From NCBI GenBank assembly GCA_964016885.1, contig OZ024745.1, forward strand, positions 97,960,001 to 98,024,000: DNA of 64,000 bases, written 5' to 3'. A model generated the notes under the pieces. The model was not told the DNA's origin. It did not search any database and was given only the letters and a program-made list of their open reading frames with translations. Origin of the DNA: Eledone cirrhosa. Taxonomy: Eukaryota. Of the stretch, positions 1-15,987 are shown in pieces. How positions within the stretch are numbered: position 1 is the first letter of the stretch; the number at the start of each line of letters is the position of its first letter. The translations under genes and the position numbers were made by a program.

Positions 1-3000
1 TTAGTGTTTAGTGAAGGTGTTTGTATTAGTGTTTAGTGAATGTGGTTGTATTCGTGTTTAGTGAATGTGGTTGTATTAGTGTTTACTGAATGTGGTTGTA
101 TTAGTGTTTAGTGTAGGTGGTTTTATTAGTGTTTAATCAAATTGGTAGTCTTAGTGTTTAGTGAAGGTGGTCGTATTAGTGTTTTGTGTAGTTGGTTGGC
201 TTAGTGTTTAGTGTAAGTGGTTATATTAGTGTTTAATCAAAATGGTAGTCTTAGTGTTTAGTGAAGTTGGTTGCATTAGTATTTAGTCAAGGTGGTTGTA
301 TTAGTGTTTAGAGTAGGAAGTGGTTATATTAGTGTTTAGTGAAGGTGGTTGTATTAGTATTTAGTGAAGATGGATGAATTAGTGTTTAATGAAGGTGGTT
401 TTATTAGTGTTTAGTGTAAGTGGTTGTATTAGTGTTTAGTAAAGGTGGTAGTATTAGTGTTTAGTGCAGGTGGTTGTCATAGTGGTTTGTGAAGGTCGTA
501 GTAATAGTGTTTAGTGAAGGTGGTTGTATTAGAGTTTAGTGAAGGTGGTTGTCTTAGTGTTTAGTGAAGTTGGTTGTATTAGTGTTTAGTGAAGGTTGTT
601 GTATTAGTGTTTAGTGTAGGTGATTGTATTAGTGTTTACTGAAGGTGCTAGTATTAGTGTTTAGTGAAGGTGGTTGGATTAGTGTTTAATGTAGGTCGTT
701 GTATTAGTGTTTAGTGAAGGTGGTTGTATTAGTGTTTAGTAAAGGTGGTTGTATTAATGTTTAGTGTAGGTGGTTGTATTAGTGTTTAGTGTAGGTGATT
801 GTATTAGTGTTTACTGAAGGTGCTAGTATTAGTGTTTAGTGAAGGTGGTTGGATTAGTGTTTAATGTAGGTCGTTGTATTAGTGTTTAGTGAAGGTGGTT
901 GTATTAGTGTTTAGCGAAGGTGGTTGTATTAATGTATAGTGTAGGTGGTTGTATTAGTGTTTCGTGAAGGTAGTTGTATTAGTGTTCTGTGAAGGTGGTA
1001 TATTAGTGTTTAGTGTAGGTAGTTGTATTAGTGTTTAGTGTAGGTAGCTGTATTAATGTTTAGTGTAGGTAATTGTATTAATGTTTAGTGTAGGTAATTG
1101 TATTAATGTTTAGTGTAGGTAATTGTATTAATGTTTAGTGTAGGTAGCTGTATTAATGTTTAGTGTAGGTAATTGTATTAATGTTTAGTGTAGGTAATTG
1201 TATTAATGTTTAGTGTAGGTAGTTGTTTTAGTGTTTAGTGTAGGTAGCTGTATTAATGTTTAGTGTAGGTAATTGTATTAATGTTTAGTGTAGGTAGTTG
1301 TATTAGTATTTATTGAAGATAGTAGTATTAGTGTTTAGTGAAGGTGGTTGTATTAGTGTTTCTTGAATGTAGTTGTATTAGTGTTTAGTGAAGGTGGTTG
1401 TATTAGTGTTTAGTGAAGGTGGTTGTATTAGTGTTTAGTGAAGGTGGTTGTATTAGTGTTTAGTGAAGATGGTTGTATTAGTGTTTAGTGAAGGTGGTTG
1501 TATTAGTGTTTAGTGAAGATGGTTGTATTAGTGTTTAGTGAAGATGGTTGTATTAGTGTTTAGTGAAGGTGGTTGTATTAGTGTTTAGTGAAGATGGTTG
1601 TATTAGTGTTTAGTGAAGGTGGTTGTATTAGTGTTTAGTGAAGGTGGTTGTATTAGTGCTTAGTGAAGGTGGTTATATTAGTGTTTAGTGAAGGTGGTTG
1701 TATTAGTGTTTAGTGAAGATGGTTGTATTAGTGTTTAGTGAAGATGGTTGTATTAGTGTTTAGTGAAGATGGTTGTATTAGTGTTTAGTGAAGGTGGTTG
1801 TATTAGTGTTTAGTGAAGATGGTTGTATTAGTGTTTAGTGAAGGTGGTTGTATTAGTGTTCAGTGAAGGTGGTTGTATTAGTGTTTAGTGAAGATGGTTG
1901 TATTAGTGTTTAGTGAAGATTGTTGTATTAGTGTTTAGTGAAGGTGGTTGTATTAGTGTTTAGTGAAGATGGTTGTATTAGTGTTTAGTGAAGATGGTTG
2001 TATTAGTGTTTAGTGAAGGTGGTTGTATTAGTGTTTAGTGAAGTTATTGTTTTAGTGTTTAGTCAAGGTGATTGTATTAGTGTTTAGAGTAGGAAGTGGT
2101 TATATTAGTGTTTAGTGAAGGTGGTTGTATTAGTATTTAGTGAAGATGGATGAATTAGTATTTAATGAAGGTGGTTTTATTAGTGTTTAGTGTAGGTGGT
2201 TGTATTAGTGTTTATTAAAGTGGTAGTATTAGTGTTTAGTCAAGGTGGTTGTATTAGTGTTTAATAAAGATGGTTGTATTTGTGTTTACTGAAGGTGGTT
2301 TTATTAGTGTTTAGTGAAGATGGTTGTATTAGTGTTTAGTGAAGATGGTTGTATTAGTGTTTAGTGAAGGTGGTTGTATTAGTGTTTAGTGAAGATGGTT
2401 GTATTAGTGTTTAGTGAAGGTGGTTGTATTAGTGTTCAGTGAAGGTGGTTGTATTAGTGTTTAGTGAAGATGGTTGTATTAGTGTTTAGTGAAGATTCTT
2501 GTATTAGTGTTTAGTGAAGATGGTTGTATTAGTGTTTAGTGAAGATGGTTGTATTAGTGTTTAGTGAAGGTGGTTGTATTAGTGTTTAGTGAAGTTATTG
2601 TTTTAGTGTTTAGTCAAGGTGATTGTATTAGTGTTTAGAGAAGGTGATTGTACTAGTGTTTAGTGCAGGTGGTTGTATTAGTATTTATTGAAGGTGATTG
2701 TATTAGTGTTTTGTGTAGGAGGTAGTATTAGTGTTTAGTGAAGGTGGTTGTCTTAGTGTTTAGTGAAGGTGGTTGTATTCGTGTTTAGTGAACGTGGTTG
2801 TATTAGTGTTTAGTGAAGGTAGTTGTATTAGTGTTTAGTGTAGGTGGTTTTATTAGTGTTTAATCAAAGTCGTAGTCTTAGTGTTTAGTGAAGGTGGTCG
2901 TATTAGTGTTTTGTGTCGTTGGTTGGCTTAGTGTTTAGTGTAAGTGGTTATATTAATGTTTAATCAAAATGGTAGTCTTAGTGTTTAGTGAAGTTGGTTG

Positions 3001-6000
3001 CATTAGTATTTAGTCAAGGTGGTTGTATTAGTGTTTAGAGTAGGAAGTGGTTATATTAGTGTTTAGTGAAGGTGGTTGTATTAGTATTTAGTGAAGATGG
3101 ATGAATTAGTATTTAATGAAGGTGGTTTTATTAGTGTTTAGTGTAGGTGGTTGTATTAGTGTTTATTAAAGTGGTAGTATTAGTGTTTAGTCAAGGTGGT
3201 TGTATTAGTGTTTAATAAAGATGGTTGTATTTGTGTTTACTGAAGGTGGTTTTATTAGTGTTTAGTGAAGATGGTTGTATTATTGTTTAGTGAAGATGGT
3301 TGTATTAGTGTTTAGTGAAGGTGGTTGTATTAGTGTTTAGTGAAGATGGTTGTATTAGTGTTTAGTGAAGGTGGTTGTATTAGTGTTCAGTGAAGGTGGT
3401 TGTATTAGTGTTTAGTGAAGATGGTTGTATTAGTGTTTAGTGAAGATTGTTGTATTAGTGTTTAGTGAAGGTGGTTGTATTAGTGTTTAGTGAAGATGGT
3501 TGTATTAGTGTTTAGTGAAGATGGTTGTATTAGTGTTTAGTGAAGGTGGTTGTATTAGTGTTTAGTGAAGTTATTGTTTTAGTGTTTAGTCAAGGTGATT
3601 GTATTAGTGTTTAGAGAAGGTGATTGTACTAGTGTTTAGTGAAGGTGGTTGTATTAGTATTTATTGAAGGTGATTGTATTAGTGTTTTGTGTAGGAGGTA
3701 GTATTAGTGTTTAGTGAAGGTGGTTGTCTTAGTGTTTAGTGAAGGTGGTTGTATTCGTGTTTAGTGAACGTGGTTGTATTAGTGTTTAGTGAAGGTAGTT
3801 GTATTAGTGTTTAGTGTAGGTGGTTTTATTAGTGTTTAATCAAAGTCGTAGTCTTAGTGTTTAGTGAAGGTCGTCGTATTAGTGTTTTGTGTCGTTGGTT
3901 GGCTTAGTGTTTAGTGTAAGTGGTTATATTAATGTTTAATCAAAATGGTAGTCTTAGTGTTTAGTGAAGTTGGTTGCATTAGTATTTAGTAAAGGTGGTT
4001 GTATTAGTGTTTAGAGTAGGAAGTGGTTATATTAGTGTTTAGTGAAGGTGGTTGTATTAGTATTTAGTGAAGATGGATGAATTAGTATTTAATGAAGGTG
4101 GTTTTATTAGTGTTTAGTGTAGGTGGTTGTATTAGTGTTTATTAAAGTGGTAGTATTAGTGTTTAGTCAAGGTGGTTGTATTAGTGTTTAATAAAGATGC
4201 TTGTATTTGTGTTTACTGAAGGTGGTTTTATTAGTGTTTAGTGAAGATGGTTGTATTAGTGTTTAGTGAAGATGGTTGTATTAGTGTTTAATGAAGGTAG
4301 TTGTATTAGTGTTTAGTGAAGATGGTTGTATTAGTGTTTAGTGAAGGTGGTTGTATTAGTGTTCAGTGAAGGTGGTTGTATTAGTGTTTAGTGAAGATGG
4401 TTGTATTAGTGTTTAGTGAAGATTGTTGTATTAGTGTTTAGTGAAGGTGGTTGTATTAGTGTTTAGTGAAGATGGTTGTATTAGTGTTTAGTGAAGATGG
4501 TTGTATTAGTGTTTAGTGAAGGTGGTTGTATTAGTGTTTAGTGAAGTTATTGTTTTAGTGTTTAGTCAAGGTGATTGTATTAGTGTTTAGAGAAGGTGAT
4601 TGTACTAGTGTTTAGTGAAGGTGGTTGTATTAGTATTTATTGAAGGTGATTGTATTAGTGTTTTGTGTAGGAGGTAGTATTAGTGTTTAGTGAAGGTGGT
4701 TGTCTTAGTGTTTAGTGAAGGTGGTTGTATTCGTGTTTAGTGAACGTGGTTTTATTAGTGTTTAGTGAAGGTAGTTGTATTAGTGTTTAGTGTAGGTGGT
4801 TTTATTAGTGTTTAATCAAAGTCGTAGTCTTAGTGTTTAGTGAAGGTGGTCGTATTAGTGTTTTGTGTCGTTGGTTGACTTAGTGTTTAGTGTAAGTGGT
4901 TATATTAATGTTTAATCAAAATGGTAGTCTTAGTGTTTAGTGAAGTTGGTTGCATTAGTATTTAGTCAAGGTGGTTGTATTAGTGTTTAGAGTAGGAAGT
5001 GGTTTTATTAGTGTTTAGTGAAGGTGGTTGTCATAGTGGTTTGTGAAGGTGGTTGTAATAGTGTTTAGTGTAGGTAGTTTTATTAGTGTTTAGTGAAGGT
5101 GGTTTTATTAGTGTTTAGTGAAGGTGGTTGTATTAGTGTTTAGTGAAGGTGGTTGTATTAGTGTTTTGTGAAGGTGGTTTTATCAGTGTTTAGTGAAGGT
5201 GGTTGTATTAGTGTTTACTTTAGGTGGTTTTATTAGATTTTTGTGAAGGTGGTTGTATTAGTGTTTAGTGAAGGGGGTTGTATTAGTGTTTAGTGAAGGT
5301 GGTTGTATTAGTGTTTACTTTAGGTGGTTTTATTAGATTTTTGTGAAGGTGGTAGTATTAGTGTTTAGTGAAGGTGGTTGTATTAGTGTTTAGTGAAGAT
5401 GTTTGTATTAGTGTTTAGTGAAGGTGGTTGTATTAGTGTTTAGTGTAGGTGGTTGTATTAGTGTTTACTGAAGGTGGTTGTATTAGTGTTTAGTGAAGGT
5501 GGTAGTATTAGTGTTTAGTGTAGGTGGTTTTATTAGTGTTTAGTGTAGGTGGTTGTATTAGTGTTTACTGAAGGTGCTAGTATTAGTGTTTAGTGAAGGT
5601 GGTTGTATTAGTGTTTAATGTAGGTGGTCGTATTAGTGTTTCGTGAAGGTGGTTGTATTAGTGTTTAGTGTAGGTAATTGTATTAATGTTTAGTGTAGGT
5701 AGTTGTATTAGCGTTTAGTGAAGATGGTAGTATTAGTGTTTATTGAATGTAGTTGTATTAGTGTTTAGTGAAGGTGGTTGTCTTAGTGTTTAGTGAAGGT
5801 GGTAGTATTAGTGTTTAATGAAGGTGGTTGTATTACTGTTTAGTGAAGGTGGTAGTATTAGTGTTTAGTGTAGGTGGTTTTATTAGTGTTTAGTGTAGGT
5901 GGTTGTATTAGTGTTTAGTGAAGGTGGTTGTATTAGTGTTTAGTGAAGATGTTTGTATTAGTGTTTAGTGAAGGTGGTTGTATTAGTGTTTAGTGTAGGT

Positions 6001-7269
6001 GGTTGTATTAGTGTTTACTGAAGGTGGTTGTATTAGTGTTTAGTGAAGGTGGTAGTATTAGTGTTTAGTGTAGGTGGTTTTATTAGTGTTTAGTGTAGGT
6101 GGTTGTATTAGTGTTTACTGAAGGTGCTAGTATTAGTGTTTAGTGAAGGTGGTTGTATTAATGTTTATTGTAGGTGGTCGTATTAGTGTTTAGTGAAGGT
6201 GGTTGTATTAGTGTTTAGTGTAGGTAATTGTATTAATGTTTAGTGTAGGTAGTTGTATTAGCGTTTAGTGAAGATGGTAGTATTAGTGTTTATTGAATGT
6301 AGTTGTATTAGTGTTTAGTGAAGGTGGTTGTCTTAGTGTTTAGTGAAGGTGGTAGTATTAGTTTTTAATGAAGGTGGTTGTATTACTGTTTAGTGAAGGT
6401 GGTAGTATTAGTGTTTAGTGTAGGTGGTTTTATTAGTGTTTAGTGTAGGTGGTTGTATTAGTGTTTACTGAAGGTGCTAGTATTAGTGTTTAGTGAAGGT
6501 GGTTGTATTAGTGTTTAATGTAGGTGGTCGTATTAGTGTTTAGTGAAGATGGTTGTATTAGTGTTTAGTGTAGGTAATTGTATTAATGTTTAGTGTAGGT
6601 AGTTGTATTAGCGTTTAGTGAAGATGGTAGTATTAGTGTTTATTGAATGTAGTTGTATTAGTGTTTAGTGAAGGTGGTTGTATTAGTGTTTAGTGAAGGT
6701 GGTTGTATTAGTGTTTAATGTAGGTGGTCGTATTAGTGTTTAGTGAAGGTGGTTGTATTAGTGTTTAGTGTAGGTAATTGTATTAATGTTTAGTGTAGGT
6801 AGTTGTATTAGCGTTTAGTGAAGATGGTAGTATTAGTGTTTATTGAATGTAGTTGTATTAGTGTTTAGTGAAGGTGGTTGTCTTAGTGTTTAGTGAAGGT
6901 GGTTTGTCTTAGTGTTTAGTGAAGGTGGTTGTATTAGTGTTTAATGAAGGTTTTTGTCTTAGTGTTTAGTGAAGGTGGTTGTATTAGTGTTTAATGAAGG
7001 TTTTTGTCTTAGTGTTTAGTGAAGGTGGTTGTCATAGTGTTTAGTGAAGGTGGTTGTATTAGTGTTTAGTGAAGATGGTTGTATTAGTGTTTAATGAAGG
7101 TGGTTGTCTTAGCGTTTAGTGAAGGTGGTTGTCTTAGTGTTTAGTGAAGGTGAATGTTTTAGTGTTTAGTCAAGGTGGTTGTATTAGTGTTTAGTGAAGG
7201 TGGTTGTATTAGTGTTTAATGAAGATGGTTGTATTAGTGTTTAGTGAAGGTGGTTGTCTTAGTGTTTAT
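1..7269. repeat. 25-bp satellite array (consensus TAGTGTTTAGTGAAGGTGGTTGTAT), ~290 copies, truncated by the window start
   Basis: 25-bp periodicity is directly visible (e.g. 1381-2040). The + strand is almost C-free. Rare variants recur at 976-bp spacing (AAGTTATTG at 2592/3568/4544; TAGGAAG at 3041/4017/4993). Confidence 0.98.
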
Positions 7270-7272
7270 GCG

Positions 7273-7416
7273 AGGAGAAAGTTGATTAAATCGACCATGT
7301 AAGAATAAAAGGCAAAACTAACCTCGGTGAGATTTGAATTTAGAACCTAAAGAGCCGTAACTCTATGTTGCAAAGCATGGTGTCCGATGCTCTACCGATA
7401 CTGCCAATCCACCGCT
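7273..7416 (-). mobile_element. tRNA-derived SINE, family 1 (partial)
   Basis: The reverse complement reads GCGGTGGATTGGCAGTATCGGTAGAGC...TTCAAATCTCACCGAGGTTAG..., homologous to the copies at 55061, 60634 and 63164. Degenerate A/B boxes. Resembles octopus SINEs (recall). Confidence 0.85.
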
Positions 7417-7427
7417 CTAATATTAAT

Positions 7428-7623
7428 GGTTTCTTATATAGACCCTAGGCCAGTAATATGGGGGACGGGGATAGTCGATTAAATCGACCCCAGTACGTTA
7501 CAGGTACTTTATTTTATCGACCCCGTAAGCCTCGGCAGGATTTGAAATCAGACCTTAAAGAGCCGTAACTCTATGCTGCAAAGCTGGCGTCCAACTCTCT
7601 ATCGATACGGCCAATCCACCACC
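7428..7623 (-). mobile_element. tRNA-derived SINE, family 1 (second tandem copy)
   Basis: Same head and body as 7273-7416, plus the GGGGTCGATAAAATAAAGTACC...CTGGGGTCGATTTAATCGAC block. Confidence 0.85.
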
Positions 7624-7632
7624 CTCATCGCC

Positions 7633-7634
<2 letters not shown>

Positions 7635-7667
<33 letters not shown>
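7635..7667. repeat. (AAT)11 microsatellite, 3' flank/TSD of the Tx1-like LINE
   Basis: 33 nt of perfect AAT; same length as 13664-13696. Confidence 0.95.
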
Positions 7668-7669
<2 letters not shown>

Positions 7670-7929
7670 TTTCTTTATTAACCACAAGGGTTTACATAAA
7701 GTAGACATTAAGGACAGTGCAGGACAATGCAGGACGGTACAAATGGGCATTTCTGCGTGTAAAAAACAAAAACAGAGGATGTAACAAAAAATAACAATGA
7801 AAATAACAATGAAAAATTCCCCAATAGGGGGGAGACTTCGGAGGAACATTTGTGGAGAAAGCCCAGTAAAAAGCCACAATGACCCTGACCACCAAGGCAA
7901 GTGCCCTCTCCCAGTTTTCCACCTTTAAT

Positions 7930-8631
7930 TTACAGATATATACTCAGAGTAGGCCCATTCACTCGAGCCATTCTTGCTTCTCTCACCCATCTTTCAACAA
8001 AATGCTGGGAAGAGAGCACTTCCCTCTCTACTCTGATTTTCCTTTTCAAATGAAATTTGAAAAAGTCAATCAGAGCATCACCGAAGAGGTAAGTGCTCGT
8101 CTTCAGCCCTTTCAAACGTGTCCACCATACTATCTCTTTCGCCGTGGCCACCAGACAGATAAAAACTGCCTGCCCTTCCCGGCTAAAGGAGGAGGGTGGG
8201 GCAATCCTCACGATGGACTCAGATGATAGCCGGATCCGTCCTAAACGCGACAGCAGGTGTTCGACATAAACCCACAAGTCAGCAATTTTCGGACACTGGA
8301 CGAGTGCGTGCAGGACGGTTTCGTCGCCCTGCGCGCATCTCGGACATGCCCGGCTGACGGCACCTCCATGCCTGTAGAGTTTATCCCGAACTGGCAAGGC
8401 TCCTCGGTAGCACTGCCAGGCCAGAGATTTCTGGAAGTTGTCCATAGGCCCCGGCCCGAAAGTTCTTCCGAAGAGATTGGCTAGTTGATTTTCGTCGACG
8501 CCTAGAGTTTCCCCAAGTACGTCGTCGCTCTTACTCTCCACTAATCCTCTATAGAACGCCGAGGTGGAGTTTCCACCGATCACATTGCCCGATTGGTCGA
8601 GGGCTGTGAGCGCCTGAAGACATTCCGGTCT
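7930..8631 (-). pseudogene. C-terminal continuation of the LINE polyprotein (zf-RVT-like), cut off by one in-frame stop
   Basis: Same frame as 8632-13449. Hand translation across the stop gives GSA*RPECLQALTALDQSGNVIGGN..., consistent with TGG>TAG. Contains CPRCAQGDETVLHALVQCP. Confidence 0.9.
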
Positions 8632-11600
8632 CTAAGCGCTCCCTCTCGGTATTCCCTTGACCCAGGACTGCAGCTCCGTCAAGGAAACGAGCTGGGGAAA
8701 TACGCGCCTAGCAAACGGCGACCACACCTGATCACCGTCGAGGAAGAGGTGGAGATGTCGTAGCCTGAGCGCGTGCCTGCGCATCATCAGCCACGGCATG
8801 CCCAGCCCTCCACGTAGCGGGTGTTGACAACAGATGGACCGCCTGACCATCGGAGCACGTCCCTTCCACAAAAAGCGAAAAAGCAAACGCTCCAGCGCAG
8901 TCAGGCGAGGCTTAGGACAAGGTACGACGGTCAGGCGGTAGCAGATGACAGACGCGATGTACGCGTTAGCCACCTCCGCTCGACCTTTCAGGGATAGCTT
9001 CCTCTCCGCCCATTTCTGGGTGAGAGAAGCCACCCTGCTCGTCACCTCGTCCCAGTTTTTGTCCGTCTGGAGGTCCGGACCGAACCAGACCCCTAGCAAT
9101 TTAACCGGTCCGTCCGTCCAGCGTCCGACGACGCTGTTGGACGGCATGGACCTGCCTCTCCAGGTGCCGAGCTGCAGGCCCACTGACTTTTCCTGGTTGA
9201 TCATTGCTCCTGTCACCGCTTCGTATTCTCTTAGTGTAGTGCCGATCGCCTCGATGTGTTTGGCGTTCGACACCACTACGGTGACATCGTCCGCATATGC
9301 TGACACGGATCTTCCGCATCCTAGTTCGCGCGGGACTCCCCTCAACGTCTCCAGTTTGTGCAGTAATGGCTCGAGAGTCAATACGTACAAGAGGGACGAG
9401 AGGGGACATCCTTGGCGGACCGAGCGCATGATGTTGAACGGTTCCGACAGGTGACCGTTCACTCTCACCACAGAGCAGATGTCGCTGTGCATGGCAGCGA
9501 TCCAGCCTCTGAAGACGGGCCCAAAGCCAGCCGCCCTCAGGACTGCCGCTAGGTAACGATGGTCGACCCTATCGAAAGCTTTCGACTGATCTAAATTGAT
9601 CAAGGACCCACCCGTGCCAGGTTCCTTAGCTACCCTCTCTATGATGTATCGCATGAGGTGGAGGTTGTCGTGGATGGATCTGTCGGAAATGGCGCATGTC
9701 TGCGCCTCTCCCACCAGACCACCAACGACAAGCGCCAACCTCTTTGCTAGCACCTTGGCCAAAATCTTGAACTCTGTGTTTAGCAGAGTTATGGGCCGGA
9801 AATTGTCTATGTTATCCCCCTTGTTCGGATCCTTTCTCAGCAGTGCCACCGCTCCTCGGCTCACAGAACTGGGAATTCTCCCGTTCTGTTGCCAGTTGCA
9901 GTAGACGTCCGCCAAGAGGCCTCCGAACAAGTCTGGCATCTGTACGTAAAGTTCATAGGGCAGACCATCCAAACCAGGCGATTTACCCCTTGTGCAGCCA
10001 GTCATTGCCTCCCTTACTTCAGCGGCTGTTATCGGCTTTTCGCAACACTTCGCCTCAGTGGCCGAGAGCCGCGGCAGTCCGTCGAGGTAGACACTAAAGT
10101 CCATCCCTCTACCCGGCCCACCGCTTCCCCCGAACAGCTGAGCGAAGTGTCGCTGAAAAGCTTCACACATTTGCCCGGGATCGAGTAGCATGCGCCCGTC
10201 GTGGTCCACCAAAGACCGGATCGTGGCTTTGTTGCCACGACGCGCCTCCGCCACTCGGGCCCATTGAACGGCTTTCATCCCCTCGTGTCTGAGAGCACGC
10301 ACCCTTGCTCTGACAACGCAGCCTTCGTGCTTTGCATTGAAGAATTGGTCAAGGGCCAATTTCGCCGCAAGCACGTCGGTCGCAATGCCTTTGCTAAGCG
10401 CCTCGTCTAATTTTCTAACTAGTTCTCCCTCTGCTCTATTTTTCTCTATTGCTAAAGCCTTACTAAACCTAATCGATTCTATTCTAATCGCTCTTTTCAG
10501 AGCAAACCACCACTTGTTGTTGACGATGGCCCCCGTCAACGCCCGCTTAACTAGTTCGCTAATCCGGTCTCTGTAGGCCTTGCGCGCTGGTAAGGACGCG
10601 TTTAGCTTCCAGTAGCCGGGTCCTCGTCTATGAAGCCTATCTAAGTCAAGCACACAGATCACGAATTTGTGGTCCGTGTAGCTGACTATCTTGAATTGTG
10701 GACAGCCTATGCTAGACCTATCTATTTCCCTACAAAATACTCTATCTAGATATGATCTGGATGACCCTATGCGGTTTGTCCAAGTCCACATTGGCACATT
10801 CGGGAAATCCAATCGGTACCTGTCAGACAGTTCAAAACGCCTGAGCAGGTTGGTGAGGCTCTTGCACCCTCCACCCCTATCCGCTAATCCCACACAGTCC
10901 CAGCATGCATCTAAGATCCCGTTCCAGTCGCCCACTAACACTAAAGAGCGGGACGTTCCAAGAAAGGTCTCCAGACGCCGGAAGAAATCAGGCCGCCCTG
11001 CTCCTGTCGGGGCATAGACGGCCACTAGCCTGAAAGCTTGCCCGTCTCCGCTGGTCACGTCCAGCACCACCAGCTTACCCTCTGGGTCCAGGAAGATGGC
11101 CCGTATGGCGAGATCCAAACCTCTCCGAAAAAGCACAGCAACTCCTCCACCCGATCCAGGACGGCTGGGAGATGCGTACACATCGTAGCCGCCGAAGATC
11201 GGTGCGAAGGCCCGTGCTTCGGAGATTCTGGTCTCGCTGATGGCCACTACATCTATGTTTAGTGACCTGAGGTCGTTGAGCAGGTGACCCTGCTTCCATG
11301 ACGACCCCAAGCCACGCGCATTTATGCTGCCTATTCTGAGTGAGGTCATGTTTAAAATAGAGTGGAAAAGATGGGAAAGACCACTTACCGTACTTTTGGT
11401 AGAGGAGGGATGGTTTTTACATCCCTTTTCACTTGATCGTCTGGTGAAGGGACCGTTGAATCGTCCCTTCGGCTGGTCTGAATATACTCTTCGATTGATG
11501 GTTCCTCCTAGGTCCCTGAAATCACCAACTGCGTTGGGGAATTTCGTTTTAATGTTTGTGTATTGTTTCTGTGCTATTTTTAGCAGTCTTATGTTAGTTG

Positions 11601-13449
11601 GCGTTTTGATTGGTGCTGGTATTATGTAGTCCTGTTGTGAAATGTCTGTGTGTTCAATTATGTAAGTCATTAGTTTCTTGTTGTGTGTATTTATTGCCGT
11701 GCATTTGTTTTTCTGGGGGTGGGGTGTGGTTCTGCTATTTTCTTGTCGTTGTTGCTGGGTGTGTGTATTTTGTTGTTGTGTTTGCGATGTTGGTGCTTGT
11801 GGTGGTGGTGTTGAAGGTGTTGTTGGCGGTGGGGTTGTCGCCGGTGGTGTGGGTGGTGATGGTGTTGGTGGTGTTGCTGCTGTGGGTCTCTTTGCAGTAG
11901 ACTTTACCCTTTTCTCATTTCTTTCCTCCCTTTTCAAAGGCGACGATGCGCTGCTTCTGCGTTTGTGCCTTCTTACGACCTTTTGCCATCCCTCTCCCAC
12001 CTCACACTCCATGTCTGATTCTGTGAGGTCGGGGAGGGGTACCAGCTCCACTCTTTCACTTGTTGTTGTTGGTGATGTTTGCACTGGAGTCTCTGTTGCA
12101 GCTGCATTTGGTATTGCTGTTGTTGTTGTTAATATTTCCACTGCTGCTGCTGTTTTTGATTTCCGTGGAGTGGGTATGGGTGCCACGGACCTATCGTTCC
12201 TGGTTGCCGCTTGTCCTGTTGCTGGTAGCCGTGGAGCCGGATTCGGAAGGAGGGGGGGTTTCTCCTTTCTCAGGGTCTTCTCGTTGCAGTAGGCCCTGAG
12301 GTGAGTCTTCGATCCACAGCGAAAGCATTTCGGGCGTTTGCCCTCAACACTTATGGGCAGTTGAGTGCCGTTATCGAAGTCTATCACATCCGGGATAGCT
12401 TCGATGCACTCCTGGTTGGTTTGGATTAGCATTTCAATGGAGGTGCCTACCCAATCTTCTCTTACTTTTTTCTGTACTTGCAGTACAGTTGTTTTGTCCT
12501 CGATTCCGACGAGGACAGACGCGGCCAGCCAAGAAGGGGCCATTCCGGGGGGGACGTGGGTCAGTTTGACCCTCACAATTTTTTTCCCGCAGTAGGAGGG
12601 CACCAACACCATTTCCTCGCTCCTTAGGGTCACTACTGATTGGGCCTTTGCCTCCTGGGGTGTGGCAAAAAGTACGTCTACGGTGGCATATTTTTTGCCT
12701 CGGGTGATGTGCGTTTTCCGCTGCCACACAGACCCCAAGGCTTTTTGTATTTGGGCCTCTGTGGCTCTTTCCACCCTACGGGATTTTGTACTTACTGTAC
12801 GGTACGTGACCGTACAGTGCTCTTGGGTATCGAAAAATTTTTCCGCTGCCTTGCAGATTGCTCGGTGTCCATTCTTTGTCACCATCTTCTTCGCTTCCTC
12901 TAATTCCTCATTTGTTATGAGGATTGTTTCCAAGTTTTTCGCAATACCTGCAAATGAGATTGGTTTTTCTCTGCTGCTGCTGTTGTTGTTGTCGTCAGAG
13001 CTGCTGGTACTTTTGTTGTTGCTGCAGGTACTACGACTACTGCCTCCGCCGCTGTTGCTGTGGTTGTTGTTGGTGTTGCTGCTGCTAATGCTGTTGTTGT
13101 TTATGCTGCTGGTGATGCTGTTGCGGCTGCTACTGTTGTTTTCATTGTCACTGTTGCTGTTGTTATTACGGCTGCTACTGCTATTATTCCTGACGTCAGA
13201 CGAATGAACTGGGTTTTCGTATTTCCCGCACACCTGTTTCGTCGCTGTCGTCGTCGTCGTGGAGAAACCTTGCACGCTTTGCACGAGACTTTTCTTTTCT
13301 TTCGTCACTTGCGAAAGAGAAGGGAGGGAGAGAGACACATTTAAAGAAGGGAGGGAGAGAGACAATCTTCTCTCTGCTGTAGTGATGATTGAGGAAGAAG
13401 AAGACGGAATGAGTGGGAGTGACGTATGAAATTTCTTTTTCGTAGCCAT
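8632..13449 (-). CDS. LINE polyprotein: ORF1-like region in frame with APE endonuclease and reverse transcriptase (1605 aa, ends at a premature TAG)
   Basis: Knuckle CFRCGSKTHLRAYC; APE motifs SINARGL, AISETR, VAVYAP, LVGDWNG, SYLDRVF, TDHKFV; RT motifs KSPGLDGL, NFRPITLLNTEFKILAK, LDQSKAFDRVDH, VRQGCPLS, AYADDV, KLLGVWF. The ORF2-like Met (MTSLRIGSIN) is at 11349, codon 701. Confidence 0.93.
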   Translation of the reverse strand: MATKKKFHTSLPLIPSSSSSIITTAERRLSLSLPSLNVSLSLPSLSQVTKEKKSLVQSVQGFSTTTTTATKQVCGKYENPVHSSDVRNNSSSSRNNNSNSDNENNSSSRNSITSSINNNSISSSNTNNNHSNSGGGSSRSTCSNNKSTSSSDDNNNSSSREKPISFAGIAKNLETILITNEELEEAKKMVTKNGHRAICKAAEKFFDTQEHCTVTYRTVSTKSRRVERATEAQIQKALGSVWQRKTHITRGKKYATVDVLFATPQEAKAQSVVTLRSEEMVLVPSYCGKKIVRVKLTHVPPGMAPSWLAASVLVGIEDKTTVLQVQKKVREDWVGTSIEMLIQTNQECIEAIPDVIDFDNGTQLPISVEGKRPKCFRCGSKTHLRAYCNEKTLRKEKPPLLPNPAPRLPATGQAATRNDRSVAPIPTPRKSKTAAAVEILTTTTAIPNAAATETPVQTSPTTTSERVELVPLPDLTESDMECEVGEGWQKVVRRHKRRSSASSPLKREERNEKRVKSTAKRPTAATPPTPSPPTPPATTPPPTTPSTPPPQAPTSQTQQQNTHTQQQRQENSRTTPHPQKNKCTAINTHNKKLMTYIIEHTDISQQDYIIPAPIKTPTNIRLLKIAQKQYTNIKTKFPNAVGDFRDLGGTINRRVYSDQPKGRFNGPFTRRSSEKGCKNHPSSTKSTVSGLSHLFHSILNMTSLRIGSINARGLGSSWKQGHLLNDLRSLNIDVVAISETRISEARAFAPIFGGYDVYASPSRPGSGGGVAVLFRRGLDLAIRAIFLDPEGKLVVLDVTSGDGQAFRLVAVYAPTGAGRPDFFRRLETFLGTSRSLVLVGDWNGILDACWDCVGLADRGGGCKSLTNLLRRFELSDRYRLDFPNVPMWTWTNRIGSSRSYLDRVFCREIDRSSIGCPQFKIVSYTDHKFVICVLDLDRLHRRGPGYWKLNASLPARKAYRDRISELVKRALTGAIVNNKWWFALKRAIRIESIRFSKALAIEKNRAEGELVRKLDEALSKGIATDVLAAKLALDQFFNAKHEGCVVRARVRALRHEGMKAVQWARVAEARRGNKATIRSLVDHDGRMLLDPGQMCEAFQRHFAQLFGGSGGPGRGMDFSVYLDGLPRLSATEAKCCEKPITAAEVREAMTGCTRGKSPGLDGLPYELYVQMPDLFGGLLADVYCNWQQNGRIPSSVSRGAVALLRKDPNKGDNIDNFRPITLLNTEFKILAKVLAKRLALVVGGLVGEAQTCAISDRSIHDNLHLMRYIIERVAKEPGTGGSLINLDQSKAFDRVDHRYLAAVLRAAGFGPVFRGWIAAMHSDICSVVRVNGHLSEPFNIMRSVRQGCPLSSLLYVLTLEPLLHKLETLRGVPRELGCGRSVSAYADDVTVVVSNAKHIEAIGTTLREYEAVTGAMINQEKSVGLQLGTWRGRSMPSNSVVGRWTDGPVKLLGVWFGPDLQTDKNWDEVTSRVASLTQKWAERKLSLKGRAEVANAYIASVICYRLTVVPCPKPRLTALERLLFRFLWKGRAPMVRRSICCQHPLRGGLGMPWLMMRRHALRLRHLHLFLDGDQVWSPFARRVFPQLVSLTELQSWVKGIPRGSA

Positions 13450-13663
13450 GTTGTTTTTTGTTTAAAATGAATATTGGGTACAAAACCCCAATAACTGGTT
13501 ATTTAACCCCGAAGGGCCAAATAACGGACAGAAAGACCCCTCTCACGAGGAGGAGGGTGTCTTTATCAACAATTTGGTTCAAGTTTTAAACAATTTACAA
13601 TTGTTTTAACGGTTAAAAATTACTATACCTTACAGAGCCGAGCCTCCGTCAACCATGGCATTC

Positions 13664-13696
<33 letters not shown>
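13664..13696. repeat. (AAT)11 microsatellite, 5' flank/TSD of the Tx1-like LINE
   Basis: 33 nt of perfect AAT. Confidence 0.95.
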
Positions 13697-13701
<5 letters not shown>

Positions 13702-13729
13702 TTTAAAAAAACAAACAAAAAAGAAAACC

Positions 13730-15379
13730 CCGCTTTTATTCTGCATCGCACTTATACCATTAAGTAAAATGCTCAATGAAACAAAACATGGATATAAAGT
13801 CTATGACAAAACCATTAATCACCTGTTCTACATGGATGACCTGAAACTATTTGCAAAAAATGATGAACAATTGAAAGGGCTATTATCCACTGTGGAGCAG
13901 TTCAGTGATGTCATTAAAATGGAGTTTGGACTAGATAAATGCGCCAAAGCAACGTTCACCAGAGGAAAGCTGCTGAAGAGTTCAGACATTAATCTTGATC
14001 GGGGGAACGTGATAAGAGAACTTGATCAAGAAAAAACTTACAAATATCTAGGTGTTTGTGAAGGAGACGGAATCAAGCACTCGACAATGAGGGAAAGGAT
14101 AAGGAAGGAATGTTACCGCAGAGTAAGAGCAATCTTAAGAACGGAATTGAATGCAAGGAATAGGATCGATGCCATAAACACGCTTGCCATACCAGTAGTA
14201 ACCTACAGTTACAATGTCATCAACTGGTCAAGCACAGAGATCCGTAGGCTCGATACAAAAATTCGAAAATTCTTAACCATGCACAGAATGCATCACCCTA
14301 AGGCAGATATAGATAGAATATATCTCCCTAGGAAAGAAGGAGGACGTGGGTTAATCCAGTTAGACATTGCGTTGAAAACTGCAACAATTGGATTATCTAC
14401 ATATCTAAGGGAATCACATGATTGGATGATCAAACTCGTTTTGAAACACGAAAGCATCAAAAGATCATATTCCATTACAAAAGATGCACAAAGATACAGT
14501 AATGGACTACAAATTTCAGAAGTCCCATTTACTGCTGAAATGGAAAACACAGAAAAAGCAAAGCAGGTAAAAGTAACTGCAAAGAAAGAACTGTTACAGA
14601 AACTGGCTAAGAAATGGCAAGAAAAGCCTCTGTATGGAAAATACCCAGAGCGAGCTAACAATCCTGATGTTGACAAAACTTTAACCCATCAGTGGTTGGC
14701 ATCCTCTGGACTGAAATCGGAGACTGAAGGACTGATTATATCAGCACAAGATCAGTGTCTGCCAACAAAAAATTACCAAGCCAACATAATAAAAAATGGA
14801 TGCAGCCCATTATGCCGTGTATGCAAAAAACAACCAGAGACCATTGACCATATAATTTAAATGTGCAGTCCTATAGCTCCAACCGAATACCTAAACAGGC
14901 ATGACAGAGCTGCACAATACATACATTGGATAATGTGTAAGCATTTTGACCTGCCCCATCAAAAGAATTGGTGGGAGCATCAACCACCTCCCATACTTGA
15001 AAAAGATCACATCTCAATCTTGTGGAACTTTAGCATCCAAACAGACCGAAAAATAGATGCAAATAGACCTGATATAATATTGAAGGACTTTCAAAAGAGG
15101 GTATGCCTGCTAATTGATATGTCTGTTCCAATAGACAAGAATGTATCTATAAAAACATTTGAAAAATTGAGCAAGTATAAGGACCTGGAGATAGAAATTG
15201 GAAAAATGTGGAAATTGAGAACTAAAACAATACCAGTGGTTGTAGGCGCTCTGGGAATGATACTTAAGGGGTCTAATGATTACATATCGCAAATCCCAGG
15301 AAACCCGCGTATAGGAGAAATACAAAAGATAGTACTAATGGGAACTGCCCATATACTAAGGAAGATTCTGTCAATATAA
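13730..15379 (+). pseudogene. RT (partial) + zinc finger + restriction-like endonuclease; one in-frame TAA at 14858-14860
   Basis: PLLFCIAL, HLFYMDDLKLF, YKYLGV, RIYLPRKEGGRGL, CRVCKKQPETIDHII*MC, RHD, NRPDIIL...LIDMSVP...EKLSKYKDL. ORFs 13655-14860 and 14861-15379 are contiguous and in the same frame. Confidence 0.9.
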
Positions 15380-15529
15380 GTACATCACAAGTCTAAACAC
15401 TAAAGATGCATGTGTGAATATGTATGTTCTTTCTTGAACATGGCGGACCTTGTTGTCTCTTGAGCTTGAGGTCACTGGTTGTGACTTGGTGATAACTCGT
15501 ATGAACATAAAGCAAGATAAATGCAACTA
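13730..15529 (+). mobile_element. 5'-truncated RLE-type non-LTR retrotransposon, R4/Dong-like
   Basis: Starts mid-RT, runs through CCHC and PD-(D/E)xK endonuclease motifs, then a ~150-nt 3' UTR and (TAA)7 at 15530-15550. Confidence 0.9.
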
Positions 15530-15987
15530 TAATAATAATAATAATAATAAATTAATAATAATTTCATTCTTCACGCAATGCTCACATTAACTAACCACTC
15601 ATGATAATAACAATTTAAAAAACAAAAAAAAAGAAAACCGCGGCCGGCGGGGAATAGCCGTGTCTCTAGGAGAGGACGACTCCTCTAGTCTTGGTTGACA
15701 CTCGTCCTAGAAGTGGTAACAAGAAATGATTACCCCCTTGGCGGTTAAGGATAAAACGCAACAAAATAAAGTAAATGTCAAATGATAAAATCTCATACCG
15801 GATCGGCTGGCAGCCGGGTCAAAATAGGCCTCGTCCATCAGATAGGAACCAGACAGGGGTCGAAAAATAAGTTAATGGTTCAAATCTTCCCATCACTTCG
15901 GAACTCCTACTGTTGGACCTCCATGCTCACCACCAAGAAATGCAAAGAAAAAGAGAGAAAAATAGTCAAGGGAAGACAATAAAGAAG

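What the first reader, a model, noticed from the sequence alone, without database searches (positions are those of the whole stretch)
7635..13696. Full-length Tx1-like LINE bracketed by exactly (AAT)11 on both sides: candidate AAT-microsatellite-specific retrotransposon
Seen: identical 33-nt AAT tracts abut both ends, and the 3' end has AATAAA but no poly(A), running straight into (ATT)n. Known: the Tx1 group includes sequence-specific APE elements (Kibi/Koshi in TC/TTC microsatellites, Keno in U2, Dewa in tRNA arrays). Inference: this family targets (AAT)n and the tracts are a target-site duplication. I do not recall a described cephalopod example but cannot check this.
Basis: partly seen in the sequence, partly recalled or inferred. 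Interest (0 to 1): 0.75.

Follow-up and report, generated by a model that had tools for sequence, protein, structure and literature searches.

The report
ATT-repeat-targeting Tx1-type retrotransposon family
This is a broken copy of a young jumping gene whose thousands of copies sit almost only in ATT repeats, likely because its own enzyme cuts there; the two equal repeats around this copy are a coincidence, and complete copies likely seal their front end by pairing with the repeat or with a neighbouring copy.

Summary
Confirmed: a 5,996-bp minus-strand LINE (7668-13663) lies between two exact (AAT)11 tracts. Targeting is supported genome-wide: 2291 of 2369 exact 5' ends follow (ATT)3 in register, and 2961 of 3568 exact 3' ends run into (ATT)3, against 0.03% of control positions. 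The reading of the tracts as a 33-bp target-site duplication is not supported. Tract lengths are uncorrelated (equal in 9 of 80). True duplications, seen at off-repeat truncated copies, are 8-19 bp, begin at Y^ATTA and show no added tail. Solitary full-length copies never mirror an irregular 3' flank upstream (0 of 28, versus 23 of 57 truncated copies), which points to an (AUU)n RNA leader, as in melanogaster-type R1. In 15 of 30 tandem pairs the whole 24-160-bp spacer is duplicated; there the 5' part is usually identical to the neighbour's, while 3' parts differ where seen. This copy is defective (23-bp deletion, premature stop). Microsatellite-specific Tx1 elements are known, but I found no ATT target in the papers searched; Repbase and Dfam could not be checked. 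This scan already noted the same family on other DNA of this genome.

The parts
7270..7634 (-). Two tandem SINE copies; the head of the nearer one starts at the end of the 3' ATT tract
   Evidence: Sequence; dispersed matches in control regions; no Rfam match
7635..7667 (.). (AAT)11 tract at the element's 3' end; read as pre-existing target DNA
   Evidence: off-repeat copies join the target directly with no tail
7668..13663 (-). Body of the Tx1-type LINE, 5,996 bp, about 1% from young family members
   Evidence: termini fixed by 3568 and 2369 exact matches
7668..7929 (-). 3' UTR, with AATAAA at 7674-7679 and a weak terminal hairpin; last ~23 nt resemble the SINE 3' end
   Evidence: fold z -1.7 only
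7930..11349 (-). ORF2, 1139 codons: APE endonuclease, RT, zf-RVT
   Evidence: Pfam PF03372, PF00078, PF13966; 29% identity over 980 columns to Xenopus Tx1L
8632..8634 (-). Premature TAG in ORF2 (Trp in other copies)
11385..13449 (-). ORF1 (about 700 codons in other copies) with one CCHC knuckle; here a 23-bp deletion near 11479 shifts it into the ORF2 frame, giving a 1605-codon fused frame
   Evidence: Atlas look-alikes carry zf-CCHC (12% of members in the best hit) and ZCCHC3-type RNA-binding domains
13450..13663 (-). 5' UTR of type A, beginning GAATGCC
13664..13696 (.). (AAT)11 tract at the 5' end, in the fixed ATT|GAATG register
13697..15562 (+). Incomplete Dong/R4-like LINE facing the other way (short leader piece, RT C-terminal part, 3' domain, AAT tail)
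   Evidence: RVT_1 hit; translation; about 98% to other copies; clade label from recalled motifs and Dong's TAA target (PMC3812793)
15563..15987 (+). 5' region of a second Dong-like element, cut off by the 50-bp satellite
   Evidence: 82% match to L191, where it leads into an RT frame

Best explanation
This is a defective full-length copy of a young, multi-thousand-copy L1/Tx1-type LINE whose copies sit in (ATT)n microsatellites, likely because its endonuclease nicks the (AAT)n strand and primes reverse transcription there. Shown: position at both ends, fixed orientation, and a duplication of 8-19 bp starting at a pyrimidine^ATTA site, with no tail, in truncated off-repeat copies. Inferred: (1) ORF2p nicks opposite Y^ATTA, and the second cut falls up to about 18-19 bp downstream. 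(2) The strong preference for long tracts over lone ATTA sites is likely added by pairing of read-through AUU repeats at the RNA ends. (3) Full-length copies likely close their 5' junction by annealing an (AUU)n leader of about six or more units to the upstream tract, which replaces or avoids the duplication. (4) When the nick falls just upstream of an existing copy, the cDNA likely switches onto that neighbour and copies its 5' part and the spacer, building head-to-tail arrays. The same machinery likely moves the abundant SINE. An unrelated Dong-like LINE uses the same tracts from the other strand.
For: Counts: 2291 of 2369 5' ends preceded by (ATT)3 in register; 2961 of 3568 3' ends followed by (ATT)3; background 123 of 399,224 positions in 20 arbitrary 10-kb regions; about 230-fold preference for tracts over off-repeat ATTA sites. 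A second 5' UTR/ORF1 type on the same ORF2 also follows ATT tracts (9 of 11 with (ATT)3 at the junction). At least 52 of the first 100 3' ends on C1 are followed, past the tract, by another element's terminus. Tandem neighbours differ by more than 2% in 10 of 24 pairs, so these are separate insertions. Duplications of 8-19 nt in 24 of 63 junction rows from off-repeat sites, the preceding base C or T in 24 of 24. The 5' run is at least 6 units in 78 of 80 full-length copies. An irregular 3' flank is mirrored upstream in 0 of 28 solitary full-length and 23 of 57 truncated copies (p 2e-5). Spacer duplicated exactly in 15 of 30 tandem pairs, 12 of these 15 with no difference in the first 340 nt, versus 4 of the other 15 and 5 of 400 random pairs; 3' parts differ where both are held. 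Precedent for leader annealing: melanogaster-type R1 (PMC2718515, section 15 read).
Against: Of 29 truncated copies in the positional sample (34 flagged, 5 dropped as chaining errors), only 10 abut ATT at the 5' junction by my reading. Of 16 others checked, 7 abut the body of a Dong-like element and 9 are unexplained; these could be later deletions, or insertions with a tail and no duplication. The 0-of-28 result could partly reflect mutation of the 3' tract after insertion, and the sets were chosen for irregular flanks. The tandem pairs include loci picked for irregular spacers and some segmental duplicates; for three key pairs (L419, L420, L430) the neighbour's 3' end was not seen, so plain tandem duplication is not excluded there. 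No RNA end and no enzyme activity was observed.
Confidence: 0.72

Rival explanations
1. One reading: the family targets (AAT)n and the flanking tracts are a plain target-site duplication (33 bp here); no RNA leader is needed.
For: A duplication of about 18 bp would by itself explain the floor of six units at the 5' side. SINE duplications in non-repeat DNA run 16-18 bp.
Against: Tract lengths uncorrelated (rho 0.13, p 0.26; equal in 9 of 80); no measured duplication above 19 bp outside tandem pairs; 0 of 28 solitary full-length copies mirror an irregular 3' flank. An 18-bp duplication hidden inside pure tracts remains possible; a 33-bp one has no support.
Confidence: 0.17
2. The element carries (ATT)n as its own tail and leader, inserts loosely at ATTA-like sites, and creates the tracts; Dong and later copies then colonise them.
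For: Most longer truncated copies have a 3' tract but no 5' tract. The likely partner SINE uses short ATTA sites: only 3 of 12 control-region SINE ends are followed by (ATT)3 (my reading).
Against: Copies at unique sites join the target directly with no tail. In the truncated copies I could read (part of that output was cut) none showed a unique duplication behind a tail. Truncated copies that cannot carry a leader still abut ATT in 10 of 29 cases against a 0.09% background.
Confidence: 0.08
3. Insertion is not sequence-directed; copies survive selection or are amplified by unequal crossing-over only in microsatellite-rich regions.
For: Arrays of near-identical copies with identical spacers exist (six listed ends at C1:441.10-441.13 Mb), so recombination may add copies.
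Against: Base-exact register and fixed strand at thousands of dispersed sites, Y^ATTA at off-repeat sites, and divergent neighbours are not produced by selection or crossing-over.
Confidence: 0.03

Closest known systems
Kibi (TC)n, Koshi (TTC)n and crocodilian (TTCC)n/(TTTC)n Tx1 families (PMC4494074: passages and section 15 read; PMC3812793: passages)
   Same: Two-ORF APE-type LINE of the Tx1 group sitting in a microsatellite in one orientation
   Different: Target is (ATT)n rather than a TC-rich repeat; host is likely an octopod; thousands of copies, about 60% full-length in the positional sample; relationship to Kibi/Koshi not tested
Tx1L of Xenopus (UniRef YTX2, P0113; PMC1950540 passages)
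   Same: Best named and characterised ORF2 relative: 29% over 980 columns; sequence-specific APE nicking shown for Tx1L
   Different: Tx1L targets the Tx1D transposon; it falls in a different supported branch of the quick tree; ORF2 here lacks about 150 residues of the Tx1L C-terminal region
Melanogaster-type R1 and R1 tandem arrays (PMC2718515: passages and section 15 read)
   Same: Precise full-length 5' junctions attributed to target sequence at the RNA 5' end, duplications in truncated copies, head-to-tail arrays at the target
   Different: R1 clade, 28S rDNA target; its arrays are explained by re-insertion into a 14-bp duplication, not by copying a neighbour's 5' part
Dong (R4 clade) in (TAA)n (PMC3812793 passages; PMC13282606 lists 5 active Dong-R4 families in Octopus vulgaris)
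   Same: Same microsatellite; present next to this copy
   Different: Different clade and endonuclease type (restriction-like, PMC4640811 passage), opposite strand
Templated insertions of human L1 (bioRxiv 10.1101/2024.08.27.596794, passages)
   Same: cDNA pairing with nearby DNA duplicates a local segment
   Different: There rare and usually under 250 bp; here the copied stretch appears to be a neighbouring element's 5' part, up to 2.5-2.8 kb

Membership tests
L1-group non-LTR retrotransposon | ORF1 plus ORF2 with N-terminal APE endonuclease, RT and C-terminal zinc motif | tested here: met
   Pfam; both frames open in 36 of 79 other full-length copies; best PDB match human L1 ORF2p, E 2e-52
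Tx1 clade | RT groups with Tx1 members rather than L1 proper | tested here: inconclusive
   259 bits to Tx1L over residues 1-760 versus 181 bits to human L1; named hits are Tx1-type. The quick tree (42 rows, careful search unfinished) has no L1 outgroup and puts the query in its own branch with an Argonauta protein and unnamed proteins
Tx1 clade | ORF1 with RNA-binding domain and CCHC knuckle (recalled feature) | tested here: met
   CX2CX4HX4C in the translation; Atlas features match CCHC/ZCCHC3-type clusters at 0.91-0.93; no Pfam hit above cut-off
Microsatellite-specific Tx1 (Kibi/Koshi type) | Over 20% of flanks in one repeat type (criterion of PMC4494074) | tested here: met
   96.7% of 5' ends and 83.0% of 3' ends
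Microsatellite-specific Tx1 (Kibi/Koshi type) | Target (TC)n/(TTC)n-type repeat | tested here: not met
   Target is (ATT)n
Microsatellite-specific Tx1 (Kibi/Koshi type) | Common descent with Kibi/Koshi | not testable with these tools
   No labelled Kibi or Koshi sequence among the hits; Repbase and Dfam not available
TPRT insertion | Short target-site duplication and 5' truncation | tested here: met
   24 of 63 junction rows with 8-19-nt duplications
Sequence-specific APE elements | Endonuclease nicks the target in vitro | not testable with these tools
   Needs purified protein

The most novel reading that the evidence does not exclude
An independently evolved Tx1 lineage gets its specificity in two tiers: a loose Y^ATTA endonuclease site, shared with its SINE, plus AUU repeats at both RNA ends that restrict full-length integration to long tracts. 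Beside an existing copy it finishes insertion by copying that neighbour's 5' end, so arrays grow as old-5'/young-3' chimeras and 5' UTR/ORF1 types are reshuffled onto one ORF2.
Probability: 0.45. Interest if true: 0.68.

Novelty: new variant of a known kind. Interest (0 to 1): 0.5.

Why it matters
It adds an A/T-rich target to the known microsatellite-specific Tx1 elements, in an animal group where active L1-Tx1 families are counted (13 families in Octopus vulgaris, PMC13282606) but where I saw no target analysis. The second half of LINE integration (the 5' junction) is poorly understood. Thousands of near-identical, mostly full-length copies with irregular tracts as natural markers give an unusually large test set for it: truncated, solitary full-length and tandem copies show three different junction types. 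It also explains how Tx1, Dong and SINE copies stack at shared tracts, and why ATT markers in such genomes would be unreliable.

Tried and rejected
(1) DNA search with the 184-bp 5' end returned nothing, not even the window itself; a longer query worked. (2) Search for empty-site paralogues among held loci gave only junctions between other tract-associated elements, so it was uninformative. (3) No RNA holder listed; laying four contig sets showed presence and variants only, no starts; neither bears on expression. (4) The metagenome scan returned only distant relatives (23-48% identity), none from the nearest branch; flanks not analysed. (6) A natural ORF1-ORF2 fusion was considered and rejected: the fusion comes from a private 23-bp deletion. 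(7) The first classification of the positional sample merged rows (72 of 100) and was redone by coordinates. (8) The 3' hairpin is weak (z -1.7) and the window's SINE end does not fold alike, so a shared hairpin is not claimed; only sequence resemblance. (9) Kojima and Fujiwara 2004 and a recalled paper on L1 chimeras were not held. (10) The careful tree did not finish; the quick tree is reported. (11) The codon tally failed to match (78 of 79 unread) and is not used. (12) Sister families said in earlier notes to sit in other repeats were not tested.
Full report
Observation. The window holds two exact (AAT)11 tracts at 7635-7667 and 13664-13696. Between them lies a 5,996-bp minus-strand LINE with APE endonuclease, RT and zf-RVT domains. 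It ends in AATAAA plus six bases, without poly(A). Left of it are two SINE copies and a 25-bp satellite; right of it an incomplete Dong-like LINE on the plus strand with an AAT tail, the start of a second one, and a 35-kb 50-bp satellite. The host is likely an octopod: the nearest named protein is from Argonauta at 73%. That is an inference.

This copy is defective. Relatives have ORF1 of about 700 codons, a stop, and ORF2 of 1139 codons. Here a 23-bp deletion near 11479, absent from 79 of 79 other full-length copies, shifts ORF1 into the ORF2 frame, and a TAG at 8632-8634 replaces Trp. It differs by about 1% from young copies, and 36 of 79 others keep both frames open (the set is enriched for young copies).

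Targeting. Exact counts over the 3.0-Gb genome: the 3' 27-mer occurs 3568 times, 2961 followed by (ATT)3. The 5' 26-mer occurs 2369 times, 2291 preceded by (ATT)3 in exact register. In 20 arbitrary 10-kb regions, 123 of 399,224 positions follow (ATT)3 in register. Off-repeat 3' flanks of three types total 173 copies, while such sites outnumber (ATT)3 positions 1671 to 123 in control DNA: about a 230-fold preference for tracts. A second type with an unrelated 5' UTR and a diverged ORF1 on the same ORF2 also starts after ATT, so the habit follows ORF2. Among the first 100 3' ends on contig C1, 49 were full-length type A, 11 full-length type B, 34 flagged truncated and 6 open-ended. Past the tract, 20 met another copy's 5' end, 24 a Dong-like 3' end and 8 a SINE head; 48 were left as other. 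Ten of 24 adjacent pairs differ by more than 2%, so they are separate insertions.

Tail or target. I selected all 64 copies whose 3' end is followed by ATTA or ATTAT and then non-repeat DNA. In 24 of 63 junction rows an 8-19-nt stretch starting exactly at the 3' end is repeated at the 5' junction; 16 are 12 nt or longer, and lengths can include a few bases of microhomology. The base before it is C or T in 24 of 24. All 24 are truncated copies under 1.1 kb. So the element can join its target with no tail, and the duplication is at most about six ATT units. This set excludes tailed copies by design. SINE ends resemble the LINE end; 40 of 44 are followed by A plus ATTAT or ATTAA, with 16-18-nt duplications in several non-repeat sites, which suggests the same enzyme. 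Against a clean picture: of 29 truncated copies (5 of the 34 dropped as chaining errors) only 10 abut ATT at the 5' side by my reading. Of 16 others checked, 7 abut the body of a Dong-like element whose own tract lies 130-1037 bp upstream, and 9 are unexplained. Internal deletions are common in this family, so later deletion is a plausible but untested cause.

The tracts are not a simple duplication. In 80 full-length copies the 5' run has a floor (78 at six units or more, 17 at exactly six), the 3' run has none, and the two are uncorrelated (rho 0.13; equal in 9). Among 59 non-tandem copies 3 are equal, 2.3 expected, so 11 and 11 is coincidence. Where the first 18 nt of the 3' flank are irregular, 23 of 57 solitary truncated copies repeat the irregularity upstream but 0 of 28 solitary full-length copies do (p 2e-5). 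I infer that full-length RNA carries an (AUU)n leader whose cDNA anneals to the upstream tract. Melanogaster-type R1 shows the same split, precise full-length junctions and duplications in truncated copies, and is explained this way (PMC2718515, section 15); annealing of cDNA to upstream target is also reported for R2 (PMC11371274, passages), and 3' read-through pairing raises R2Ol activity (PMC6530143, passages). Mutation of 3' tracts after insertion is the main caveat.

Tandem arrays. In one array the top copy is identical to an older copy two places downstream for 563 nt and then matches the young subfamily, and a 42-bp irregular spacer is repeated. I predicted the same for other irregular spacers and fetched 20 loci. 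Of 30 held pairs, 15 repeat the whole spacer (24-160 nt) upstream; 12 of them have no difference in the first 340 nt, versus 4 of the other 15 and 5 of 400 random pairs. Where both 3' parts are held they differ: L422/L110 has 0 substitutions in 2539 nt and then 9; L428 has 0 in 1569 nt and 9 in the last 760. L419 and L430 have old-type 5' and young 3' halves, but their neighbours' 3' ends were not seen. The simplest account is that cDNA switches onto the neighbour and copies through its 5' end and spacer, like templated L1 insertions (bioRxiv 10.1101/2024.08.27.596794, passages). Unequal crossing-over may add to longer arrays.

Classification. ORF2 scores better to Xenopus Tx1L (259 bits on residues 1-760; 29% over 980 columns) than to human L1 (181 bits). 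A quick tree of 42 RT regions groups it with P0001 and the Argonauta protein (SH-aLRT 100), sister to 11 unnamed proteins (99), apart from the Tx1L branch; it lacks an L1 outgroup and labelled Kibi/Koshi. It works like Kibi/Koshi; descent from them is untested.

Literature. Known Tx1 microsatellite targets are TC, TTC, TTCC and TTTC (PMC4494074); TAA is listed for Dong only (PMC3812793). The 2026 Octopus vulgaris annotation lists 13 active L1-Tx1 families, and the word 'target' does not occur in its main text (PMC13282606: first of three parts and passages read). Searches showed no ATT-specific Tx1 (listings; one search returned no paper). The 2004 screen paper was not held, and figures, supplements, Repbase and Dfam were not seen; the target may be recorded there. 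Earlier unreviewed notes of this scan describe the same family, the Dong and SINE links and neighbour copying (seen after my own tests); they are not independent support.

Verdict. Interest 0.5.

Noticed in passing
window 11385-11390 (minus) and L133, L135, L126: A splice-donor-like GGTAAGT overlaps the ORF1 stop and is followed by a pyrimidine tract; it is kept in sister types only 73-86% alike.
   Followed up: no
L136, L142, L183 and others, junction near element position 2265: Type B: different 5' UTR (GGCGACC...) and diverged ORF1 joined to the same ORF2 about 45 nt before the ORF1 stop; 11 of 100 copies in the positional sample.
   Followed up: partly
window 13692-13731 and 15604-15640: A 36-39-nt piece at the start of the incomplete Dong copy matches the leader of the next Dong copy downstream; either an internal deletion or neighbour copying by Dong as well.
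   Followed up: partly
L191 4620-4700, L119 7430-7500: The 5' region of a Dong-like family contains a SINE 3'-end fragment.
   Followed up: no
L144, L183, L203, L123, L180, L202: SINE copies recur at one ATTAAA site inside type B ORF1, with 17-18-nt duplications in the clearest cases; independent insertions or one inherited event.
   Followed up: no
many loci, e.g. L138, L156, L166, L188, L189, L198: Large internal deletions are frequent in otherwise young full-length copies.
   Followed up: no
G000:C9:6038000-6038328: Four 3' ends spaced 98 bp apart: a short tandem repeat made from the element's end.
   Followed up: no
window 1-7268 and 15988-50633: The whole LINE/SINE/Dong nest sits between a 25-bp satellite (290 copies) and a 50-bp satellite (695 copies).
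   Followed up: no
L105, L136, L143, L148, L328: (CTT)n runs directly adjoin the ATT tract at several insertion sites.
   Followed up: no
P0002-P0072: A large unnamed sister group at 41-45% ORF2 identity in ENA assemblies, with clusters of hundreds of members; hosts and targets unknown.
   Followed up: partly
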